This document shows, piece after piece, positions 3,399 to 13,499 of a stretch of 64,000 nt of DNA (the stretch's first letter is position 1; each line of letters starts with the position of its first letter). Source of the DNA: a virus (Duplodnaviria; Heunggongvirae; Uroviricota; Caudoviricetes); the IMG/VR virus record IMGVR_UViG_3300027819_000008, positions 27,405 through 91,404 of that record; one strand, given 5' to 3'. Position numbers and translations under genes: made by a program. The notes beneath the pieces were generated by a model. It ran no database searches. It saw nothing but the letters and a program-made list of their open reading frames with translations, and was not told the DNA's origin.

Positions 3399-3653
3399 CT
3401 AGAAGAACGCCTGCTGCGCCGCGGCGGGCCGGTAGGTCGCGCCCGCCTCGGTGATCTGTCGCTCCAGCGCGGTGAAGTATTGCACGTTGACCTCATGGCA
3501 CTTGAGCGTGTCGGCCGCCACCTCGTTCAGCGTGTACCCCATCTTCTCCACGTACCGGTGAACAGCCGTCCGCTCCGCGGGCATGTGATCCCGCGCGTAC
3601 AGGTACGAGTAGAGCCGGCGCTTCAGGCCAAGCTCCCACCACCGGGACTCCAC
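3399..3653 (-). CDS. small helix-turn-helix-like protein encoded inside the polA-splitting insert
   Basis: C-terminal 60-80 aa look protein-like (YVEKMGYTLNEVAADTLKCHEVNVQYFTALERQI, HTH-like). Candidate GTG start at 3653 follows GGGGA; an alternative ATG lies at 3584. The upstream part of the track ORF 3399..4013 is W/R-rich frame junk. Confidence 0.3.
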   Translation of the reverse strand: MESRWWELGLKRRLYSYLYARDHMPAERTAVHRYVEKMGYTLNEVAADTLKCHEVNVQYFTALERQITEAGATYRPAAAQQAFF

Positions 3654-3852
3654 TCCCCGAGGCAGGGACCCACACGCGAAGTAGAACCTCACCGGCACCC
3701 CCGGAGAGTCTTGGCCAACCCCAAAACGGGGTGTACAACCCCCAAAACGGGCCCGTACGGGGCGATTGGGGGCTTCCCGGTGTGGTTGCACGGGAACCCC
3801 CCTCCCGACCCGCCCAGGGGGAGCCACGGCCGGGCGTGTCGAAATGGCACGA

Positions 3853-5103
3853 TCACAGGTACTCCGCCCGCCGCAGCCGGGCGTCCAGGGCCACCTCCAG
3901 CTCCAGCGTGGCGCAGGCGTCGTGCACCGCCCCACTAGCCACCTGCTCCAGGGGAAGGTCGCGCATCCGTCCCTTGTCCACCTCGGCCCAATACTGGCGC
4001 TTGCCCAGGACATCCACCACGGCCTTCTCCAGGCGCAGGCTCTCGTGCGTCCCGTCGCTGAGGGAGACGAGCGCGAGCATGGCGTCGCGCGTGCGGCGGA
4101 CGCGGTGTGCCCACCCGGGGACGACCAGCCCCTCCTCGTCGAAGTGCCCGTTGAACGCCGTCCGGTCGGCCGCAGAGGTGAAGGCCGGGGTCAGCAGCTC
4201 GCACACCCGCGCGCGGTGCGCGAGCAGCGGCGCGAGCTCCAGCCACGCCCCCTGCGTGAACGACCACGCGACCGCGACGCCGCGCAGGCGGAAGTCCGGG
4301 TGGCACGGGTCGGTGGAGACCTCCTTGCGGCTCGGGAACGCACCCCCGTCAAAGGACTCTATGTCGAAGGCCCACATCGCGCGGTGGCGAGTCAGGCGCT
4401 CGGCGAGCGCGCCCAGCTGGTCCAGCGTGGTGACCACCGTGACGCGCACCGCGGACTGGGGCTCCTGCCCGTGCAGGCGCTCGGCCATCCGCCGCATGTC
4501 GTCGGTGAACTGCGCCGTGAGTTCCGCGCGCCGCGCGGGGTCCGGCACCTGCTGGAGCGACCCGGGGTGTCGGTCCACGAACGCGTCCCGCCCGTCCGGC
4601 GTCCTGATCCACAGCCCGCGCACGCCGCCGAGTCGCTGCCGGGTGTTCCCTGTGACGTGGTGGAGCGGCGCGAGGCCGAGCACGAGCAGCGGGACCCCCG
4701 GGTCGTAGCGCGCGAGGTCGCGGGCCAGGTGGGCCGCGCAGCGCCGAGCCGACTCCTTCCACGCCTTACCCTCGAAGTCGTCCCCGGCCGGCCGGCACCG
4801 CGCGAGGTGCAGGTACGCGACGCGGTCCGGGTCCACGTTCGCGGCCTGGAGCGCCGGGCGCAGCACCCACTGGTCACCCTGCCCGCCCGGTGCGGTGGTC
4901 AGCACGATCAGCTGCGGGTCCTCACAGTGCACCGGGGGGACCTTGCGGTCCGGGGCGTCACTCGGGCACCCACTGCACGGGTTGCCGAGGTCCGCGGGTG
5001 TACGGGGAGTTTGTGGTGCTCCGGCAGTCCGCTGCCGCCGCTTTGGTGCGCGGGCGAAGGCCGGCCGGTCGAACTGAGAGAAGAAAGACGGCTGCTCCGT
5101 CAA
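3853..5103 (-). CDS. UDG-like domain fused to 3'-5' proofreading exonuclease (N-terminal piece of split PolA)
   Basis: Exo I (AFDIESFDGG), Exo II (FNGHFDEE) and Exo III (HDACATLE) motifs are present. The N-terminal half is Cys-rich and resembles family-4 UDG (as in SPO1 polymerase-associated UDG). TTG start at 5103. Ends with a TGA immediately followed by a hairpin-rich insert. Confidence 0.75.
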   Translation of the reverse strand: MTEQPSFFSQFDRPAFARAPKRRQRTAGAPQTPRTPADLGNPCSGCPSDAPDRKVPPVHCEDPQLIVLTTAPGGQGDQWVLRPALQAANVDPDRVAYLHLARCRPAGDDFEGKAWKESARRCAAHLARDLARYDPGVPLLVLGLAPLHHVTGNTRQRLGGVRGLWIRTPDGRDAFVDRHPGSLQQVPDPARRAELTAQFTDDMRRMAERLHGQEPQSAVRVTVVTTLDQLGALAERLTRHRAMWAFDIESFDGGAFPSRKEVSTDPCHPDFRLRGVAVAWSFTQGAWLELAPLLAHRARVCELLTPAFTSAADRTAFNGHFDEEGLVVPGWAHRVRRTRDAMLALVSLSDGTHESLRLEKAVVDVLGKRQYWAEVDKGRMRDLPLEQVASGAVHDACATLELEVALDARLRRAEYL

Positions 5104-5166
5104 GACTTCTTGGGTACCGGCTTGACCCCGACCATCTGCATATCCTGCCGAGACGAGTGCCCGAAG

Positions 5167-5245
5167 CTAATGAGCACCCGAGCCCCCCCCGTTGACTGCG
5201 GACTTGCTGTGCGCACCCCCGAGCCCGAGGTAAATCTTCACCGCG
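5167..5245 (-). repeat. Q-repeat copy A (24-aa micro-ORF VKIYLGLGGAHSKSAVNGGGSGAH)
   Basis: GTG AAG ATT TAC CTC GGG start motif shared with the other Q copies. Nucleotide similarity to copy E over about 70 nt, including a G8 run and GGGTGCTC. Lies between the clamp and exonuclease genes. Confidence 0.5.
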
Positions 5246-5286
5246 GTTTGATACCGACGGCCTGACATACGGCTCGCGTAGTGGCC

Positions 5287-5375
5287 TTATATGACACAAG
5301 GACCCTCGCCTGCAGCTTCACTGCAGTGTGTGTGTGCGTTGTCGTTACCGGCCCCGAGATAAATCTTCACGCCAG
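5287..5375 (-). repeat. Q-repeat copy B (27-aa micro-ORF VKIYLGAGNDNAHTHCSEAAGEGPCVI)
   Basis: Its GTG start overlaps the clamp TGA stop (GTGA), the same coupling geometry as real genes in this genome. Paralogous to copies A, D and E and to the dpdA start. Confidence 0.5.
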
Positions 5376-6590
5376 CAGCATCACGATGTGCTCGAACCGC
5401 TTGTCCGCAGACACGAAGTACGCCGTGGTCCCGGCCCCCGCGGCCGGGAGCCAGAACCGACGGCCGACGACCTCGAGCGCCTCCTTGAGGTACTTGCCAT
5501 TGACCGAGAACGTCGTCGGCTCGCCCTGCACCGCGGCCGGGATCTCCTCCTCGGCGCGCGCGTCGGCCTCGGCCACCGTCAGCTTCAGCGAGTCCCGGCC
5601 GACCTCCCCCTGCACCCGGAACGTCGGGGCGGTGGCGAAGTGCAGCAGCCGCTCGAACGCGGCGGCCAGGTCCCCGGTGACGTCCACCCAGGTTCCCCCG
5701 CCGCGGGCGTCCTCCCGGACCTTCTTGAGGGCGCCGGCGAACCCGGCCGTCGGGAACCCCGCGGCCAGGAGCGACCCGTACACCGCCGCGCGCTCCCCGA
5801 GGAAGAACCACACGGTGGCGTCGCCCTCCAGGCACACGGAGGTCGCGTCGCGGCGGCGCGACCCGAGGCGCTCCAGCAGGTGGTCCGGCAGCAGCAGCCC
5901 ACCCTTCGGCGCGGGTGTGCGGTACTCCTTCGGGGGATTCAGCACCGAGATGCGGAACGTGTCGGTGGACAGCAACAGCCCACCCTCCGACCAGTACACG
6001 CCGCGGAGCGGGGGCTTCGTCTCGTCCCGGCACACCGTGAACATCACACGCTCGAGCTCGCCCCACCACCGCGGGTCCAGCGCCGTGCGTGGGGTCTTCG
6101 GCGCCTCCCGCTGCACGTACAGGGACACGTCCTCGGTGCCCGCGGGCCTGTAGCACCCCAGCTGCGCGCGGAACCTCCCGCCCCGGAGACGAATCGTCCC
6201 CTCGTGGGACTCCAGCACCAGCTCCTCCACGGACGAGTCGTTCAGCGACGTCACGATGCGGCGCAGGTGCGCGGCCGAGAGGGCGAACTCCCCGGGGAAG
6301 GTCCACGGCGTGGTGTGCACCGCGCCGGCGGACCCGGAGTTGGACCGGACCGACGTCCCCTGGAACCAGACCTGCTTGAGCCCGGGCACGAGGTCGCGGT
6401 CGGAGGCGAAGTCGCTCGTCAGCGTGATCGCCGGCAGCAGCTCCTCCACCGGGAGCGTGACCCCGGACCCCGGCTTCTTCTTGGCAGCCTTCGGGGCCTC
6501 CGGCCTGTCATCGTCCAGGAAGGACTGGGTGATCTCGGTCACCCCGGTCTCGCTGGTTACCCGCATCTCCGGCGCCCGCTTCTTGGCCAT
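5367..6590 (-). CDS. dnaN: DNA polymerase III beta sliding clamp
   Basis: Aligns with E. coli DnaN: IRLRGGRFRAQL versus RSGRSRFSLSTL, the YWSEGGLLLSTDTFRISV block, and the C-terminus TTAYFVSADKRFEHIVMLLA versus AAYVVMPMRL. ATG at 6590 overlaps the HNH stop (TAATG); the track ORF is over-extended to 6716. Confidence 0.8.
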   Translation of the reverse strand: MAKKRAPEMRVTSETGVTEITQSFLDDDRPEAPKAAKKKPGSGVTLPVEELLPAITLTSDFASDRDLVPGLKQVWFQGTSVRSNSGSAGAVHTTPWTFPGEFALSAAHLRRIVTSLNDSSVEELVLESHEGTIRLRGGRFRAQLGCYRPAGTEDVSLYVQREAPKTPRTALDPRWWGELERVMFTVCRDETKPPLRGVYWSEGGLLLSTDTFRISVLNPPKEYRTPAPKGGLLLPDHLLERLGSRRRDATSVCLEGDATVWFFLGERAAVYGSLLAAGFPTAGFAGALKKVREDARGGGTWVDVTGDLAAAFERLLHFATAPTFRVQGEVGRDSLKLTVAEADARAEEEIPAAVQGEPTTFSVNGKYLKEALEVVGRRFWLPAAGAGTTAYFVSADKRFEHIVMLLA

Positions 6591-7057
6591 TAAACGTGAC
6601 TCCAGGTTTGTCGTCGGCATATGTAAGAAATCATGACTTGAGAAACCCCATACCGTTTCGCAGCGACGCGCTGGCTGATCAGCCCACGCTTTCCTTTGCC
6701 AAGCCCCGGCCCACACACCCGGCGGATCTCTTTCACAACCGCGGCAGTTAGCTTTTTGGCAGCGCGCCCCTTATAAGTCTTGTCCGCCATGTTGGCGGCT
6801 TGAGTACCAAGGAACAGATGCGTCGGCTCGCCGCATGTTCCGGTATCACAGGTGTGGCAGACTTCCAAACCAACGGGGATAACCCCACGCACCAGAGTCC
6901 AGGCTAGCCTATGAACGAGCCAGCAAGTTCTCTGAAAAGTGACCGTGCCGTAAGCACCCCTCTCGTCATTGCACGCACCTTGCCAGAGCAGGCAGCCATT
7001 TGCAGAACGCTTGAACTTAAGCCAGAAGTCTGCCGGCATACTCGCTCGCTGAGGCAT
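6590..7057 (-). CDS. HNH homing endonuclease (free-standing)
   Basis: HNH core: CLLWQG...GYG...LVHRLAW...HTCDTGTCGEPTHLFLGT. The C-terminal tail is HTH-like. Sits between dpdA and dnaN. Confidence 0.8.
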   Translation of the reverse strand: MPQRASMPADFWLKFKRSANGCLLWQGACNDERGAYGTVTFQRTCWLVHRLAWTLVRGVIPVGLEVCHTCDTGTCGEPTHLFLGTQAANMADKTYKGRAAKKLTAAVVKEIRRVCGPGLGKGKRGLISQRVAAKRYGVSQVMISYICRRQTWSHV

Positions 7058-8011
7058 TTAAAAAAAGGACTTCTGCGTTGCCCGGCGCGACCAAGGACGA
7101 TCCACCCAGCTCTTTTCCAGATCGAGAAAAAATAGAACATTAAGCTCGTCGCGCTTCACGTAGTCCGTGGCCAGCTGCTCCGGCGCGTACCCCTTCCCCT
7201 CCACGTACGCAAGGATCGCGGCCTGCTCGGCCGGGGCGTACGTCTTGAAGTGGGCCCCGTCCTCGCTCAGCTTCGGCGAACGGTCGGAGAAGGACACGTT
7301 GTGCACCTTCCCGCCGAGCGGCACGTAGCAGCCGCCGAAGTTGCCGACCTTGACCCACGACGTGCTATCGACCGAGAACCAGGGATACATCTGCATGAGC
7401 GCGATGCTCGTCAGCCCGAACCCGTGGAAGCGGCGGAGGGGCCGGCCCTCATCGTCGGTCAGCAGCTCCATGGAGCGGTCCAGGGACTTGATGCGGTCCG
7501 CGGACGTCAGCCCCGGAGCGGCCAGCCCGCCGAGCGCGAAGTACTCGGCGTGGTCCATGAGCTTCCGGAGCCACTTGAGGTCCTCGCCCCGGTGGTACGT
7601 GTGGATGAGCTGGACGCCGGACCCCCGCAGCTTCTTCTGGAGGTACGCGTAGTTCTCCCACCCGCGCTCCGCGGCGCGCTCCACCTCGGCCGCGGACGCC
7701 GGCTGCCCCGGCTTCCCCGGGATCACGTCCAGGTTGGCGACGACGGTGAACGCGTCCCGGTTCGCGAGGACGAAGTCCGCGTAGTCGTCCAGGTTGATCT
7801 CCGACCCCTTGGCCCAGGCCGTGAACGCCCCGGAGTCCAGGAACAGGTCCACTGCCGGCTTGCCCCCACCGCTCATGAACACCTCCGCCCACGGCAGCCG
7901 CGCCGGGGTCTCGCGCACGATCGCGTACGAGTGCAGGCGGCGCCGCGCCCCGACGCGGGCCACGTTGGCCTCGCGCGTGCGCTCCAGGCTCCCGGCCAGG
8001 TACACCCTCAT
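7058..8011 (-). CDS. dpdA: DpdA-like DNA 7-deazaguanine transglycosylase (TGT superfamily)
   Basis: LFLDSGAFTAW matches the TGT catalytic TDSGGFQ motif. No zinc-site cysteines, which is typical of DpdA. Co-located with the preQ0 biosynthesis genes. The start MRVYLAGS is duplicated in the Q repeats. Confidence 0.6.
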   Translation of the reverse strand: MRVYLAGSLERTREANVARVGARRRLHSYAIVRETPARLPWAEVFMSGGGKPAVDLFLDSGAFTAWAKGSEINLDDYADFVLANRDAFTVVANLDVIPGKPGQPASAAEVERAAERGWENYAYLQKKLRGSGVQLIHTYHRGEDLKWLRKLMDHAEYFALGGLAAPGLTSADRIKSLDRSMELLTDDEGRPLRRFHGFGLTSIALMQMYPWFSVDSTSWVKVGNFGGCYVPLGGKVHNVSFSDRSPKLSEDGAHFKTYAPAEQAAILAYVEGKGYAPEQLATDYVKRDELNVLFFLDLEKSWVDRPWSRRATQKSFF

Positions 8012-8078
8012 CGCTTCAGCGCCGCCTTCATTACGCTGCTGTTTCTGTCCGCATAGGTAACGAGCAGGCGCACGCCGC

Positions 8079-8145
8079 TCACGCGAAGGACCATCTTCGC
8101 CACCGCTGTACTGTTAGGTGCCCGGCCAGGTACACCCTCACCGCT
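8079..8145 (-). repeat. Q-repeat copy D (20-aa micro-ORF VRVYLAGHLTVQRWRRWSFA; duplicate of the dpdA 5' end)
   Basis: A 24-nt near-identical copy of the dpdA start region (GTGAGGGTGTACCTGGCCGGG), 129 bp upstream of the genuine dpdA ATG. Confidence 0.45.
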
Positions 8146-8192
8146 GTGGCCTGAATCCTAGGAGCCTGCCGAGGGGAACGGACCGGCGATTG

Positions 8193-8295
8193 TCACCGTT
8201 CCCGTACGAAAAGAGCACCCGCCCCCCCCTTGGCGACCACGGACTTCGTGTGGGCCACGTCGTTCTTGCCGGCGCCGAGATACACCTTCACCGGC
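8193..8295 (-). repeat. Q-repeat copy E (32-aa micro-ORF VKVYLGAGKNDVAHTKSVVAKGGAGALFVRER)
   Basis: Its GTG overlaps the folE TGA stop (GTGA). Protein-level and nucleotide-level similarity to copies A and B. Confidence 0.5.
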
Positions 8296-9193
8296 GGATC
8301 AGCGCGAGGAACTCCGCGCGGGTCTCCGGGTGATCGCGGAAGACGCCGCGCATGGCCGACGTGACCATGGTGCTCTCCGGCTGCCGCACCCCGCGCATGA
8401 CCATGCAAAAGTGCGTGGCCTCCACCACGACGGCCACCCCGCGCGGCTCCAGGGCCTGCTCGAGCTCCAGGGCCACCTGCTGCGTCAGGCGCTCCTGCAC
8501 CTGCAGCCGGCGCGCGTACTTTTCCACCACGCGGGACAGCTTGGACACCCCGATGATCTTGGTGGACGGCAGGTACCCCACGTGGGCGCGCCCGAAGAAC
8601 GGCAGCATGTGGTGCTCGCAGTGGCTGACGAACTGGATGTCCCGCGAGATCACGACCTCGTCGGTCAGCCCGTCCTCGAACGTAGTGAGCGCCGGGGTCA
8701 TCGCGTACCCCCCGAACAGCTCCTTCCACGCCCGGGCCACGCGGGCCGGCGTCTCGCGCAGGCCCTCGCGCTTCGGGTCCTCCCCGAGGAACTCGAGCAT
8801 GCGCGTGATGATCTCGCTGCCGGGTTCCTCCTGCTTCTCGTAGGGGTACACGACCCAGTCGCCGGTCTCCTCCACCAGGTAGGTCGGCACCGACCGCGAG
8901 GCCGGGCGGACGTGGAGCACCGCCGTCAGGTGGTCGGGGTAGCGCGCGAGCGTCTCCCCGCTGTCGCAGATGTCGTCCACCACCAGGCACCCGGGCTCCG
9001 GGGTCTCCAGCAGGACCGGCTCGCGACCGCACTGCTGGGCCAGGGCCCGCGCGAGCAGCATGGCGACCGGGACCCCGCCGCTCGGGACCGGGTAGAGCGC
9101 GTCGAAGCGCGCCCCACGCGCGCAGATTGCGCTGGCCAGCTCCTGGGCCAGCAGGTCCAGCTCCGTCCAGGTGACCCGCCGCTGCACCCGCAT
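8288..9193 (-). CDS. folE: phosphoribosyltransferase-like domain fused to GTP cyclohydrolase I (FolE)
   Basis: The C-terminal ~185 aa carry the FolE signature (FVSHCEHHMLPFFGRAHVGYLPSTKIIGVSKLSRVVE...ATHFCMVMRG). The N-terminal ~116 aa look like a type I PRTase (VPSGGVPVAMLLARAL...LVVDDICDSGETL...WVVYPYE). ATG at 9193 overlaps the queE stop (ATGA); the track N-terminus is out-of-frame overlap. Confidence 0.75.
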   Translation of the reverse strand: MRVQRRVTWTELDLLAQELASAICARGARFDALYPVPSGGVPVAMLLARALAQQCGREPVLLETPEPGCLVVDDICDSGETLARYPDHLTAVLHVRPASRSVPTYLVEETGDWVVYPYEKQEEPGSEIITRMLEFLGEDPKREGLRETPARVARAWKELFGGYAMTPALTTFEDGLTDEVVISRDIQFVSHCEHHMLPFFGRAHVGYLPSTKIIGVSKLSRVVEKYARRLQVQERLTQQVALELEQALEPRGVAVVVEATHFCMVMRGVRQPESTMVTSAMRGVFRDHPETRAEFLALIRR

Positions 9194-12096: not shown

Positions 12097-12142
12097 CAAA
12101 CCTACATAACCACCCCGCGGGTATCCCGGCTAGAAATCTAGT

Positions 12143-12192
12143 CAAAAAAAATGCGGGGGAGCCAAAGGGTAAGGACCCCGTGACTCCCCCGC
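12143..12192 (-). terminator. rho-independent terminator after the sigma-like gene (T-run on both strands)
   Basis: On the minus strand: GCGGGGGAG...CUCCCCCGC stem followed by AUUUUUUUU. A T-run is also present on the plus strand. Located directly 3' of the stop at 12216. Confidence 0.6.
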
Positions 12193-12215
12193 GGTGGGAG
12201 GCCGAACCTTTTTTT

Positions 12216-13499
12216 TCAGGCCGGCTTGACGTACTTGCTGGCGATCATCGTGTTGCGACCCTTGAACCGGCAGCCGTAGCGCACGCCGGGCCCGACGTTG
12301 CCGTAGTACCGGAACACCTTGCCCTTGTCCCCCTTGCGCAGCCACTCCGCGCGGCTGCCACCCAGGTACACGACCTCGGTCCCCTTCGGGATGAGCTTCT
12401 CGCCGGCGCGCGGGACGTACTTCCCGCTGTCGATGCGCTCGAACGCCGTCTTGGCCGCCCACTCCTTGCTGCCGCTGCGCTCGGCGGCCGGCTTCTTGGT
12501 GACCTTCGCCGTCTTGGCCGCGTCGGCCTTGGCCTTCTTCGCGGCCTTAGCGGCCTGCTTCTCCGCCTTGGCCTTCTTGTCGGCGTCCGCCTTGGCCTTC
12601 TTATCGGCCTTCACCTTCTCCGCCTTCGCGGCCTTGTCGGCCTTCACCTTCTCCGCCTTCGCGGCCTTGTCGGCCTTGGCCTTGGCCTCGTCGGTCTTGA
12701 CCTTCGTGCTGTCCGCGCCGTTCGCGTCGGCCGCTTCCGCCGCCATGCCCGGCTCCATCGGGAACATCTGGTCCACCGCTCCCATTCGCTCCATCGTCGT
12801 CTCTCCTTTGTTCGGGGTCAACTGCCTCTTATCCACTATATCGAGCGGAGCACCATGAGGGTCGTCACGGTCGAGCGCGGCGCGCACCTGCCCCTCCACG
12901 CGCGACCACGCCAGCCGCAGCCGGGAAATGGGGACCTCGAGCACCTGTGCGAGCACGTGCTCACGCACCGACGCGAACGTTTGCTTGCCGCGCCCGCGAT
13001 GGGTCCACTGCCGGCGGAGCTCCGCGAGGGTTCCCGCCGCGGGTTCCAGGAGCTCGTGCAGCAGCCGGCGCTCCACCTCGGGGAGCAGGCGCTCGGCCTC
13101 CTGCAGTGCGAACTGGACCATCATGGTCCGCAGGCCGTCCTCCCCCACGGTCTCAGCCATGGCCCGGGCGCCGTCACCCAGGGGTTCGTCCAGGCTGAGC
13201 ACGCGCACGCCCCCACCCCCGAACGCGCGGCTGCGCGTGTAGGCCGTGATGCACGCGCGCGAGACCGTGGCCGTCCCCATCCGGCCCAGGTCCTCCGCCG
13301 GCACGCGGTGCCGGTGGCGCCGCCAGTTGCGCCAGAGGTTAAGCAGGCCGTCCTGGATCAGGTCCTCCTGGGACAGGTACGGGTGGTGCGACCCCCGCGC
13401 GCTGGACCCCGTGACGCGCTTGACCCACGGCTTCATCTTGACCAGGTACTGCTCGAACGCGACCTCCTCGTCCCGCGTCGGTGCGAGCTGCGCGCTCAA
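12216..13499 (-). CDS. sigma-70-family-like protein with C-terminal Lys/Ala-rich histone-H1-like repeats and a small C-terminal domain
   Basis: Region-2-like segment (YLSQEDLIQDGLLNLWRNW). Followed by KAKADKAAKAEKVKADKAAKAEK... repeats, then about 85 aa with a globular-looking composition. TTG start at 13499 overlaps the upstream TGA (TTGA). Confidence 0.45.
   Translation of the reverse strand: MSAQLAPTRDEEVAFEQYLVKMKPWVKRVTGSSARGSHHPYLSQEDLIQDGLLNLWRNWRRHRHRVPAEDLGRMGTATVSRACITAYTRSRAFGGGGVRVLSLDEPLGDGARAMAETVGEDGLRTMMVQFALQEAERLLPEVERRLLHELLEPAAGTLAELRRQWTHRGRGKQTFASVREHVLAQVLEVPISRLRLAWSRVEGQVRAALDRDDPHGAPLDIVDKRQLTPNKGETTMERMGAVDQMFPMEPGMAAEAADANGADSTKVKTDEAKAKADKAAKAEKVKADKAAKAEKVKADKKAKADADKKAKAEKQAAKAAKKAKADAAKTAKVTKKPAAERSGSKEWAAKTAFERIDSGKYVPRAGEKLIPKGTEVVYLGGSRAEWLRKGDKGKVFRYYGNVGPGVRYGCRFKGRNTMIASKYVKPA

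What the first reader, a model, noticed from the sequence alone, without database searches (positions are those of the whole stretch)
5167..8295. Repeat family carrying translationally coupled micro-ORFs that share the dpdA start codons VK(I/V)YLGAG
Five loci share GTGArGrTkTAyCTsGGsgCcGG on the minus strand: 5167-5245, 5287-5375, 8079-8145, 8193-8295, and the genuine dpdA start at 7991-8011. In frame they encode V-K/R-I/V-Y-L-G/A-(A)-G with mostly synonymous or conservative differences (ATT/GTG, TAC/TAT, CTC/CTG, GGG/GGC). This argues for selection at the peptide level or for recent duplication of a gene start. Copies B and E begin with a GTG overlapping the TGA of dnaN and folE respectively (GTGA), exactly the coupling geometry used by real genes here. 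They run on as 27- and 32-aa ORFs that are similar beyond the core (GAGNDNAHTHCSEAAGEG versus GAGKNDVAHTKSVVAKGG). Copy A resembles copy E at nucleotide level over about 70 nt. The two pairs lie immediately upstream of the exonuclease-UDG gene and of dpdA.
Basis: seen in the sequence. Interest (0 to 1): 0.7.

Follow-up and report, generated by a model that had tools for sequence, protein, structure and literature searches.

The report
Switchable spare copies of DpdA's start
The repeated "gene starts" are frame-broken copies of a previously undescribed family of about 50-residue phage proteins, each a free-standing duplicate of the first quarter of the DNA-modifying enzyme DpdA. Across many phages these small genes carry slippage-prone simple repeats that probably switch them on and off.

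Summary
The core occurs 5 times on the minus strand against 0.09 expected, and a sixth, diverged copy lies at 3692-3399.

The copies are not 20-32-residue micro-ORFs. Each is a 130-150 nt unit homologous to the first ~45 codons of dpdA, which form strand 1, helix 1 and strand 2 of its TIM barrel. In the four free-standing copies (A, B, D, E) the strand-2 motif (RVLxSY) lies 61-71 nt downstream in another reading frame. That frame runs to a TGA overlapping the next start codon.

The frame breaks coincide with the window's only two G/C runs of 7 or more (G8 in A and E) and its only non-CG dinucleotide repeat ((CA)5 in B).

Related phages carry the same units as intact 50-65-codon genes at the same positions, under purifying selection (dN/dS 0.04). 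At least 265 such unnamed small proteins exist in public data.

In 79 other dpdA loci, dinucleotide repeats and G/C runs are strongly concentrated in these small genes (p = 4e-27 and 8e-10). Frame breaks track the repeats (p = 5e-7).

Best reading: these are repeat-switched (phase-variable) accessory genes, all caught OFF here. Simple decay is the main rival.

The parts
8142..8291 (-). Copy E, a free-standing DpdA N-module gene that is frame-broken. The GTG at 8291 overlaps the folE TGA. Strand 1 (VKVYLGAG) is in frame 0, which stops at 8195-8193. Strand 2 (RVLFSYG, from 8221) is in the +1 frame, which stops at TGA 8140-8138 overlapping the GTG of D.
8222..8229 (-). G8 tract (C8 on the + strand) at the frame switch of copy E. 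G7 or G10 would restore one ORF of 50-51 codons.
   Evidence: This is one of only two G/C runs of 7 or more in 64 kb.
8012..8141 (-). Copy D, frame-broken. Its first 21 nt equal those of dpdA except for the first base. VRVYLAGH is in frame 0, which stops at 8081-8079. VRLLVTYA is in the -1/+2 frame, ending at TGA 8010-8008, which overlaps the dpdA ATG. There is no simple repeat at the break.
   Evidence: (D5)
7058..8011 (-). dpdA (317 aa). Copy C is its first 45 codons (8011-7877), which form strand 1, helix 1, strand 2 and helix 2 of the TIM barrel, in frame with the catalytic core (LDSGAF at residues 58-63).
5242..5370 (-). Copy B, frame-broken. The GTG at 5370 overlaps the clamp-gene TGA. 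VKIYLGAG is in frame 0, which stops at 5289-5287. ARVLVSY is in the +1 frame, ending at TGA 5240-5238, which overlaps the GTG of A.
5326..5335 (-). (CA)5 on the minus strand, (GT)5 on the plus strand, inside copy B between strand 1 and strand 2. (CA)6 would restore a 44-codon ORF.
   Evidence: (the only non-CG dinucleotide repeat of 5 or more units in the window)
5101..5241 (-). Copy A, frame-broken. VKIYLGLGG is in frame 0, which stops at 5169-5167. ARVLISFG is in the +1 frame, ending at TGA 5102-5100, which overlaps the TTG start (5103) of the UDG-exonuclease gene.
5183..5190 (-). G8 tract (C8 on the + strand) at the frame switch of copy A. G7 or G10 would restore a 46-47-codon ORF.
3399..3692 (-). 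Copy F, a 97-codon ORF (GTGA start). An intact N-module (VRFYFACG...RRLYSY) is fused in frame to the last ~60 residues of a DpdA. It is an internally deleted second dpdA, at the same position as the second dpdA of relative L001.
   Evidence: (BLASTP E = 4e-4 for the N part and 3e-10 for the C part against the window DpdA)

Best explanation
Shown: the loci are paralogues of the N-terminal quarter (strand 1, helix 1, strand 2) of the phage DNA 7-deazaguanine transglycosylase DpdA.

In this phage clade and in many other dpdA phages, this quarter-barrel also exists as free-standing genes of 45-65 codons. These sit next to dpdA, folE and the replication genes, often several per genome. Their start codon usually overlaps the stop of the gene before.

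In this window, one copy is the true dpdA start and one heads an internally deleted second dpdA. The other four are free-standing genes, each split by one frameshift in the helix-1 region. What looks like a 20-32-codon micro-ORF is only the 5' half of such a gene.

Inferred: three of the four breaks lie on slippage-prone simple repeats (G8, G8, (CA)5). The same kind of repeat is strongly concentrated at the same place in this gene family in unrelated phages, where in-frame and out-of-frame states both occur. The most likely mechanism is therefore slipped-strand mispairing during replication, which toggles each small gene ON or OFF (phase variation).

In this reading all four genes are caught OFF here. 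Because each intact gene ends exactly on the next start codon, an OFF state would also uncouple translation of the gene downstream (dpdA, and the TTG-initiated UDG-exonuclease gene).

The biochemical role of the free quarter-barrels is not shown. The best guess is that they bind or complement the DpdA core.
For: Motif scan of the window:
- A six-frame scan finds the strand-1 motif only 5 times in 64 kb. Each is followed 61-71 nt later by the strand-2 motif. It is in frame only in dpdA, offset +1 in A, B and E, and offset -1 in D.
- Frame-corrected products are homologous end to end.
- Strand-2 codons differ between B and A (and B and E) at 5 synonymous and 3 conservative positions out of 8. 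The serine codon is AGC in A, TCA in B and TCG in E.

Structure:
- The AF2 model of the window DpdA has pLDDT 93. Residues 2-6 and 24-28 are barrel strands 1 and 2.

Close relatives:
- L001 and L002 carry intact single-frame modules at the same positions, and L007 has one with GTGA directly after folE.
- L001 versus L002 gives dN/dS of 0.04 for the module between the clamp and UDG genes (18 synonymous, 3 non-synonymous changes). For dpdA and the clamp gene it is 0.07.

Size of the family:
- 98 free-standing hits against 29 N-terminal-of-DpdA hits in 55 of the loci scanned.
- 265 database proteins at E <= 1e-3 (best 1.7e-18), nearly all 46-82 aa, unnamed and without a Pfam domain.

Simple repeats:
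- The window's only G/C runs of 7 or more are the two G8 tracts in A and E.
- Its only non-CG dinucleotide repeat of 5 or more units is in B.
- In 79 IMG/VR dpdA loci, 20 of 35 dinucleotide repeats fall in the first 110 nt of module ORFs, which make up 1.6% of the sequence (p = 4e-27). For G/C runs the figure is 8 of 21 (p = 8e-10). A/T runs are not enriched.
- Frame splits occur in 13 of 35 repeat-bearing modules against 3 of 109 without a repeat (Fisher p = 5e-7).
- Both shift directions occur, and copies with the same flanks are ON or OFF by one repeat unit.
- RE dipeptides in modules use AGA-GAG more often than the background (p = 0.005).
Against: - No read-level or strain-level tract-length variation could be examined for this phage. 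The only other assembly (Logan, same run) is identical, and conceptual ON-state proteins are absent from the protein collection.
- All four copies are OFF at once, D has no repeat at its break, and the second dpdA is internally deleted. All of this also fits a lineage that is simply losing the system.
- The relatives L001 and L002, whose modules are intact, have no long repeats in them.
- HMM scores of the corrected A, B and E products are weak (8.4, 8.2 and about 3 bits). Their family membership rests on motifs, spacing, pairwise BLASTP and gene order.
- The repeat-bearing IMG/VR modules come from perhaps 6-8 lineages, not 35 independent events.
- Part of the (AG)n enrichment reflects a conserved R-E-R-E peptide motif.
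Confidence: 0.55

Rival explanations
1. Plain pseudogenes. The four free-standing copies are dead remnants of once-functional small genes in a lineage that is dismantling an L001-like system of two dpdA genes plus several modules. The repeats are simply where the inactivating indels happened.
For: - All four are out of frame.
- D has no simple repeat at its break.
- The second dpdA is reduced to 97 codons.
- Composition is lower in G+C in these stretches (0.59-0.65 against 0.70-0.77).
- Intact versions in L001 and L002 lack long repeats.
Against: - Each copy carries a single lesion only.
- Start codons, strand-2 motifs, the open second frame and the terminal TGA overlapping the next start are all retained in all four.
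- B differs from A and E by many synonymous changes, yet both halves are preserved.
- Three of four lesions lie on reversible repeats, and repeat enrichment in this gene family is general.
Confidence: 0.27
2. Programmed recoding. Ribosomal +1 slippage on the G run, or RNA-polymerase slippage, routinely yields the full-length ~45-50-residue proteins from the out-of-frame genes, so the genes are constitutively functional.
For: - A, B and E all need the same +1 shift, immediately before the RVL codons if B is read that way.
- G GGG GGG G allows perfect re-pairing of a glycine tRNA.
- In L020, L021 and protein P0103, dpdA's own N-module is out of frame in the same direction although the (AG)n tracts differ by 6 nt.
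Against: - B and D have no slippery run at the required place.
- Across the family both shift directions occur, and about 60% of repeat-bearing copies are simply in frame. A conserved recoding signal would not give this pattern.
- No stimulatory structure was found. Terminator-like hits are at chance level.
Confidence: 0.1
3. The 20-32-residue peptides, or the 25-bp core itself, are the functional entity: coupled leader peptides, a regulatory or initiation element, or an HNH endonuclease target.
For: - The core is conserved and always contains the start codon.
- Start/stop overlap is real.
- An HNH gene of low G+C lies between the two arrays.
Against: - Conservation extends through a second frame to the end of each unit.
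- Intact 50-65-codon orthologues are under purifying selection.
- There are no promoter-like sites.
- Modules abound in loci that were retrieved independently of any HNH gene.
Confidence: 0.05
4. Sequencing or assembly error at homopolymers creates the apparent frameshifts.
For: Two of the four breaks are at G8 runs.
Against: - An independent assembler gives the identical sequence across E and D.
- B and D break away from homopolymers.
- Dinucleotide repeats dominate the breaks in other metagenomes.
Confidence: 0.03

Closest known systems
Phage DpdA (DNA 7-deazaguanine transglycosylase; TGT-like TIM barrel; PHROG 887; structure of bacterial DpdA, PDB 7ui4)
   Same: - Copies share the strand-1 and strand-2 motifs and their spacing with the DpdA N-terminus.
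- The window DpdA model matches 7ui4 and TGT.
- About 51 of 120 DpdA homologues carry this N-module fused.
   Different: - The copies lack the catalytic core (the DSGAF aspartate and everything after it).
- They are 45-65-codon genes or gene fragments.
- No paper in the searchable library mentions free-standing N-modules.
- No PHROG or Pfam family covers them.
Simple-sequence-repeat contingency loci (phase-variable genes of Neisseria, Haemophilus and Campylobacter; hypermutable poly-G tracts in Campylobacter phage genes)
   Same: - A mononucleotide G/C or dinucleotide tract lies inside the 5' part of an ORF.
- Both in-frame and out-of-frame alleles occur among relatives.
- The ORF is intact on both sides of the tract.
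   Different: - Switching has not been observed here, only inferred from enrichment and from states across genomes.
- The genes are tiny intracellular enzyme fragments beside a DNA-modification gene, not surface or receptor-binding proteins.
- The precedent in Campylobacter phages is cited from my own knowledge. It is referred to only indirectly in papers found.
Split or circularly permuted (beta/alpha)8 barrels and fragment complementation (half-barrel HisF/HisA work; my own knowledge)
   Same: - The module is exactly a (beta-alpha)2 quarter of a barrel.
- It occurs fused at the N-terminus, at the C-terminus of a core lacking it (P0013), or on its own.
- Edwardsiella phage vB_EpM_ZHS has a core without the module plus a separate 59-aa module-like ORF, ZHS_62.
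   Different: - Complementation in trans is untested.
- AF2 placed the C-terminal module of P0013 with low confidence (pLDDT 32-57).
- Free modules also accompany DpdAs that already have a fused module, and some cores without the module have no module nearby.
Start-associated or boundary repeats of phage genomes (for example cluster K mycobacteriophage SAS; my own knowledge)
   Same: A short conserved sequence recurs at gene starts within one genome.
   Different: Here the repeat is coding, conserved as peptide with synonymous changes. It extends about 135 nt and is homologous to an enzyme domain.

Membership tests
DpdA N-terminal quarter-barrel module (paralogue family) | Strand-1 motif [MV][KR][IV][YF][LF].G followed about 20-25 codons later by strand-2 motif R.L.S[YF] | tested here: met
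   All five loci have both motifs 61-71 nt apart, and only two stray strand-2 hits occur elsewhere in 64 kb over six frames. In A, B, D and E the two motifs are in different frames.
DpdA N-terminal quarter-barrel module (paralogue family) | Significant profile match to an HMM built from DpdA N-termini and intact free-standing modules | tested here: inconclusive
   Scores in bits: C 30-36, F 14.4, D (corrected) 14.0, A (G7) 8.4, B ((CA)6) 8.2, E (G7) about 3+2. Pairwise BLASTP of corrected products is clear: A versus L001 m5 E = 6e-6, B versus A 2e-13, E versus A 4e-9.
DpdA N-terminal quarter-barrel module (paralogue family) | Forms strands 1 and 2 of the (beta/alpha)8 barrel in full-length DpdA | tested here: met
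   The model has strands E2-6 and E24-28, then six further barrel strands, with pLDDT 88-94 over residues 1-30. One search confirms the DpdA/TGT fold.
DpdA N-terminal quarter-barrel module (paralogue family) | Intact free-standing orthologues at the same gene-order positions in relatives, under purifying selection | tested here: met
   (dN/dS: m5 0.04, m1 0.29, m4 0.40, m3 invariant).
Simple-repeat phase-variable (contingency) gene | Slippage-prone tract (G/C run of 7 or more, or 5 or more dinucleotide units) inside the ORF, with intact coding sequence on both sides | tested here: met
   for A, E (G8) and B ((CA)5). Not met for D.
Simple-repeat phase-variable (contingency) gene | Tract-length variation giving ON and OFF alleles among close relatives or within a population | tested here: inconclusive
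   For this phage only one sequence exists. Across the family, 21 repeat-bearing modules are in frame and 13-14 are out of frame. Copies of one subfamily with matching flanks differ by one AG unit (L013 and L030 OFF, L014 ON).
Simple-repeat phase-variable (contingency) gene | Reversible switching at high frequency, observed experimentally | not testable with these tools
   Needs reads or cultures.
Programmed ribosomal frameshift or transcriptional slippage | Conserved slippery site and conserved shift direction across homologues | tested here: not met
   Both directions occur, and most repeat-bearing copies are in frame. B and D lack a slippery run at the break.
Pseudogene | Reading frame disrupted | tested here: met
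Pseudogene | Relaxed constraint or accumulating further lesions | tested here: inconclusive
   There is one lesion per copy, and motifs, starts and terminal stops are retained. No close strain is available to measure dN/dS.
Homing-endonuclease target repeat | Repeat co-occurs with the endonuclease gene across genomes | tested here: not met
   Modules are present in 55 loci that were found through dpdA alone. In L001 the HNH-like ORF lies between folE and the first module, not where it lies in the window. No systematic count of HNH genes was made.

The most novel reading that the evidence does not exclude
The free-standing quarter-barrels may be interchangeable, repeat-switched subunits of a naturally split TIM-barrel enzyme. 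Each would dock onto (or displace the resident N-module of) the DpdA core and bring its own strand1/helix1 and strand2/helix2 loops. In bacterial DpdA these are the very loops proposed to hold the DNA and to flank the active site for sequence recognition (Ins1 and Ins2, PMC10164549). Random ON/OFF switching of several alternative modules, and in some phages of dpdA's own N-module, would then give a phage population a mixture of DNA-modification patterns or levels. This would be a bet-hedge against both restriction enzymes and modification-dependent nucleases.
Probability: 0.15. Interest if true: 0.92.

Novelty: new variant of a known kind. Interest (0 to 1): 0.72.

Why it matters
DpdA is the signature enzyme of 7-deazaguanine DNA hypermodification in phages. 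Its target-site choice and its very variable efficiency are unexplained.

This work shows three things about its first quarter. It is a separable unit. Phages keep that unit in several free-standing, selected copies next to the enzyme gene. These copies, and sometimes dpdA itself, are hot spots for slippage-prone repeats.

Together this points to an unrecognised layer of control, or of specificity switching, in phage anti-restriction. It also offers a natural system of quarter-barrel fragments for people who study how TIM barrels evolved.

On the practical side, hundreds of "hypothetical" 50-60-residue phage ORFs get a family assignment. Gene callers should expect frame breaks at these repeats.

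Tried and rejected
Searches for close relatives:
- Megablast of 5.9 kb against cultured phages found no match.
- A DpdA single-protein scan and a core DNA pattern scan of IMG/VR found nothing close.
- A single-protein scan of JGI metagenome contigs found only two distant loci, so there was no second strain to compare tract lengths.
- A look-up of the cluster representative P0122 found nothing on record. It differs from the window protein only by V versus M at the start.
- Conceptual ON-state products, tried with an M start only, are not in the 15-billion-protein collection.

Structure:
- The circular-permutation test by AF2 on P0013 was inconclusive, because the C-terminal module has low confidence.
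- A profile of the DpdA alignment against PDB sequences gave nothing significant. The fold search was needed instead.

Family assignment:
- PHROG and Pfam scans of free-standing modules gave no family.
- tblastn of one free-standing module against cultured phages found no match.

Other ideas rejected:
- Promoter or terminator role: 0 promoter-like sites, and terminator-like hits at chance level.
- RNA structure of the 3693-3860 spacer: z = -0.2.
- Nucleoside 2-deoxyribosyltransferase fragments, which have a similar MKIYLAGP start: the module has no Pfam match to that family, whereas the neighbouring ZHS_61 does.

A caveat and an error:
- A first-order Markov simulation predicts more G/C runs of 8 or more (mean 7.9) than the two observed. 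The count of runs is therefore not unusual; only their placement is.
- My first dinucleotide-repeat regular expression was wrong and was redone.

Full report
**1. Observation**

The 18-nt degenerate core occurs five times in the 64-kb window. All copies are on the minus strand, starting at 5241 (A), 5370 (B), 8011 (C, the ATG of dpdA), 8141 (D) and 8291 (E). The chance expectation is 0.09.

Reading the sequence confirms the rest of the description:
- The GTG of E overlaps the TGA of the phosphoribosyltransferase-FolE fusion gene.
- The GTG of B overlaps the TGA of the sliding-clamp gene.
- The first-frame ORFs are 24 (A), 27 (B), 20 (D) and 32 (E) codons long.
- A and E resemble each other over a further 58 nt.

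Neighbouring genes were identified by PHROG and Pfam scans. Going down the minus strand from 9190 they are: PRT-FolE, E, D, dpdA (8011-7058), an HNH endonuclease (7057-6590), the clamp (6590-5367), B, A, UDG-exonuclease (5103-3853, TTG start), a 97-codon ORF (3692-3399) and DNA polymerase A. The HNH gene has G+C of 0.55-0.58 against about 0.70 elsewhere.

**2.

Translating all three frames shows that each free-standing copy goes on in a second frame:
- A continues as ...GGARVLISFGHSSRQDMQMVGVKPVPKKS*.
- B continues as ...LQARVLVSYKATTRAVCQAVGIKPR*.
- E continues as ...GGRVLFSYGNGDNRRSVPLGRLLGFRPQR*.
- D continues as ...AVAKMVLRVSGVRLLVTYADRNSSVMKAALKR*.

DpdA itself reads MRVYLAGSLERTREANVARVGARRRLHSYAIV... 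in one frame.

A six-frame regular-expression scan finds the strand-1 motif only at the five loci. Each is followed 61-71 nt later by the R.L.S[YF] motif. The offset is 0 in dpdA, +1 in A, B and E, and -1 in D.

Each second frame ends in a TGA that overlaps the next start codon: the GTGA of A and of D, the ATGA of dpdA, and the TTGA of the UDG-exonuclease gene. The units are therefore 129-150 nt long and abut one another exactly.

Conceptual products with the frame repaired are homologous from end to end:

| Pair | Identity | E-value |
|---|---|---|
| B versus A | 51% over 43 aa | 2e-13 |
| E versus A | 42% over 48 aa | 4e-9 |

Between B and A or E, five of eight strand-2 codons differ synonymously. 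The serine is AGC in A, TCA in B and TCG in E. That frame was therefore under protein-level selection while the copies diverged.

**3. A sixth copy**

The 97-codon ORF at 3692-3399 also begins GTGAGG. It encodes VRFYFACG...RRLYSY, followed directly by the last ~60 residues of a DpdA. BLASTP against the window DpdA gives E = 4e-4 for the N part and 3e-10 for the C part.

It is a second dpdA that has lost residues ~35-255. It lies where relative L001 has a second dpdA (P0013).

**4. What the unit is structurally**

PHROG 887 aligns to DpdA residues 1-299. An AlphaFold2 model built on 118 homologues has pLDDT 93.

Among 120 homologues, about 51 have this N-module. About 69 start directly at the catalytic strand (xLFLDSGAF). 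One (P0013) carries a module-like segment at its C-terminus instead.

The module is therefore separable in evolution. An AF2 run on P0013 could not confirm that the C-terminal segment docks into the barrel (pLDDT 32-57).

**5. Close relatives**

The window is identical to an NCBI metagenome contig (L003) and to an independent Logan assembly of run ERR2108714 across E and D.

Contigs L001 and L002 have DpdA 61% identical to the window's and the same gene order. They carry the modules as intact single-frame ORFs of 52-69 codons at these positions:
- after folE;
- twice after dpdA;
- between the clamp and UDG genes;
- fused to the end of the second dpdA.

L007, a groundwater contig with DpdA 59% identical, has an intact module whose GTG overlaps the folE TGA. 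This is exactly the position of E.

L001 and L002 differ at 9% of nucleotides. Nei-Gojobori counts give the following:

| Gene | Synonymous / non-synonymous changes | dN/dS |
|---|---|---|
| Clamp-UDG module (the positional counterpart of A and B) | 18 / 3 | 0.04 |
| First module (m1) | 10 / 9 | 0.29 |
| Fourth module (m4) | 8.5 / 11.5 | 0.40 |
| dpdA (after codon 50) | 29 / 7 | 0.07 |
| Clamp | 82.3 / 20.7 | 0.07 |

The repaired A product matches that L001 gene across both motifs (E = 6e-6). These are real genes in the relatives.

**6. The family at large**

I built an HMM from DpdA N-termini and the intact modules and ran it over six-frame translations of 80 IMG/VR dpdA loci. It gave 98 free-standing hits of at least 14 bits, against 29 that are the N-terminus of a DpdA, in 55 of the loci scanned.

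The free-standing hits are typically ORFs of 45-65 codons, beginning MKIYLAG... or MKIYLATW... and containing RLLSY. They often occur two to five per locus, right beside dpdA.

About 102 of 111 starts are (A/G/T)TGA. In 67 of 103 of these, the TGA closes an upstream frame that is open for at least 40 codons. It is helped by the conserved Lys/Arg codon at position 2.

A profile of 53 free-standing modules retrieves 265 proteins at E <= 1e-3 from 5.8 billion clusters. The best E-value is 1.7e-18. Nearly all are 46-82 residues long, none has a name beyond "hypothetical", and none has a Pfam domain. PHROGs and Pfam have no family for them.

Among cultured phages:
- Seuratvirus, Iggy, MS1, Me-ZS1, vB_Ade_ART and S0112 have the module fused to DpdA.
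- Edwardsiella phage vB_EpM_ZHS has a DpdA without it, plus a separate 59-codon ORF (ZHS_62, MKIFLAG...HILVSFFF) a few genes away.

Free modules occur both with DpdAs that have a fused module and with DpdAs that lack one. Some DpdAs without the module have no module within 6 kb.

**7. Simple repeats and frame breaks**

In the window, the only G/C homopolymers of 7 or more are two G8 tracts (minus strand) at 5183-5190 and 8222-8229. These are exactly the frame-switch points of A and E. The only non-CG dinucleotide repeat of five or more units is (CA)5 at 5326-5335, inside B and between its two motifs.

G7 or G10 would repair A and E. (CA)6 would repair B. A one-base deletion just before the RVL codons would also repair B. 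D has no repeat at its break.

The number of G8 runs is not above a Markov expectation. What is unusual is their placement.

The same pattern holds elsewhere. The table covers 79 IMG/VR loci (875 kb, median G+C 0.41), where the first 110 nt of module ORFs make up 1.6% of the sequence:

| Repeat type | In module ORFs | Expected | p |
|---|---|---|---|
| Dinucleotide repeats, 5 or more units | 20 of 35 | 0.57 | 4e-27 |
| G/C runs of 7 or more | 8 of 21 | 0.34 | 8e-10 |
| A/T runs of 7 or more | 11 of 403 | 6.6 | 0.07 (not enriched) |

Of 35 repeat-bearing modules, 13-14 have strand 2 in another frame directly after the repeat. Only about 3 of 109 modules without a repeat do (Fisher p = 5e-7).

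Both shift directions occur. Within one subfamily, copies with matching flanks are in frame (L014) or out of frame by one AG unit (L013, L030).

In L020, L021 and L030 the broken module is the N-terminus of dpdA itself.

Arg-Glu dipeptides inside modules are encoded as AGA-GAG more often than elsewhere (GAG 62% against 40%, p = 0.005). The (AG)n tracts are therefore not just a by-product of the R-E-R-E peptide motif.

Two caveats apply:
- The repeat-bearing modules come from a limited number of lineages.
- I could not look at reads.

**8. Interpretation**

The identity of the elements is well supported. They are paralogues of DpdA's first quarter-barrel and belong to a large, unnamed family of small phage proteins.

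For their state in this phage there are three candidate explanations:
- Repeat-mediated ON/OFF switching, with all four caught OFF. I favour this reading.
- Simple decay.
- Constitutive recoding.

Four observations favour switching:
- Three of four lesions lie on reversible repeats.
- Each copy has a single lesion, with every other feature preserved.
- The repeat enrichment is general.
- ON and OFF states are mixed across genomes.

Two facts keep decay alive: D has no repeat at its break, and the second dpdA is deleted. Recoding is disfavoured by the mixed shift directions and by the absence of slippery runs in B and D.

One consequence follows from the anatomy. An intact module ends on the next start codon, whereas a broken one terminates 64-68 nt upstream. 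The state of D would therefore affect translational coupling into dpdA, and the state of A would affect coupling into the UDG-exonuclease gene, which has a TTG start and no evident Shine-Dalgarno sequence. That the TTG at 5103 is the true start is supported by conservation of the encoded N-terminus with L001.

**9. Function of the free modules**

The function is not shown. In bacterial DpdA the strand1/helix1 and strand2/helix2 loops are described as part of the DNA-binding surface and as flanking the active site (PMC10164549). A module that docks onto the core could therefore change DNA binding or site choice. This is the most novel reading and remains speculative.

**10. Literature**

Searches for DpdA together with phase variation or simple repeats found no paper that links them.

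Noticed in passing
window 3399-3692 (-): A 97-codon ORF made of a DpdA N-module fused in frame to a DpdA C-terminal tail. It is an internally deleted second dpdA, called as a gene in public annotations (P0121, P0122).
   Followed up: yes
window 6590-7057 (-): The HNH endonuclease gene between dpdA and the clamp gene has G+C of 0.55-0.58 in a 0.70 genome, which suggests recent insertion. In relative L001 an HNH-like ORF (weak Pfam hits) sits instead between folE and the first module.
   Followed up: partly
window 8288-9190 (-): GTP cyclohydrolase I is fused to an N-terminal phosphoribosyltransferase-like domain (phrog_2197 plus phrog_8995). The same fusion is present in L001 and L005.
   Followed up: no
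window 12140-12220: A8, then a G+C-rich hairpin (GCGGGGGAG...CTCCCCCGC), then T8. This looks like a bidirectional intrinsic terminator where the minus-strand gene block ends.
   Followed up: no
window 3700-3760 (-): Two adjacent small hairpins of the CCCGTTTTGGGG type lie in the 160-nt spacer before the 97-codon ORF. The fold of the whole spacer is not better than shuffles (z = -0.2).
   Followed up: partly
L020 5936-6100, L021 5969-6140, L030 320-480: In these IMG/VR phages the N-module of dpdA itself is out of frame with the catalytic core at an (AG)n tract. L020 and L021 differ by 6 nt in tract length yet share the same frame offset. Database protein P0103 starts inside the same repeat.
   Followed up: partly
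L031 238-340: The DpdA N-module has an in-frame TGA (LWK*RLWSYYH) rather than a frameshift. This may be a nonsense mutation or a recoded stop.
   Followed up: no
DpdA homologues P0001-P0120, around window 7876: DpdAs with a fused module have a conserved Met 8-10 residues before the first core strand (the window's FMSGGGKPAVDLFL, with ATGA at 7876). This is where module-less DpdAs begin, so it may be an internal start or a trace of an ancestral two-gene arrangement.
   Followed up: no
P0172, P0188, P0190, P0192: 113-115-residue versions of the MKIYL(A/S)TWL subfamily carry a conserved C-terminal extension (YYYHPESDS.WSSN...).
   Followed up: no
L001 10001-10954 (P0013): A second DpdA that lacks the N-module but ends with a module-like segment (IRIYLAGG...SLVSF). 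It may be a circular permutation or a read-through fusion with a downstream module. The AF2 result was inconclusive.
   Followed up: partly
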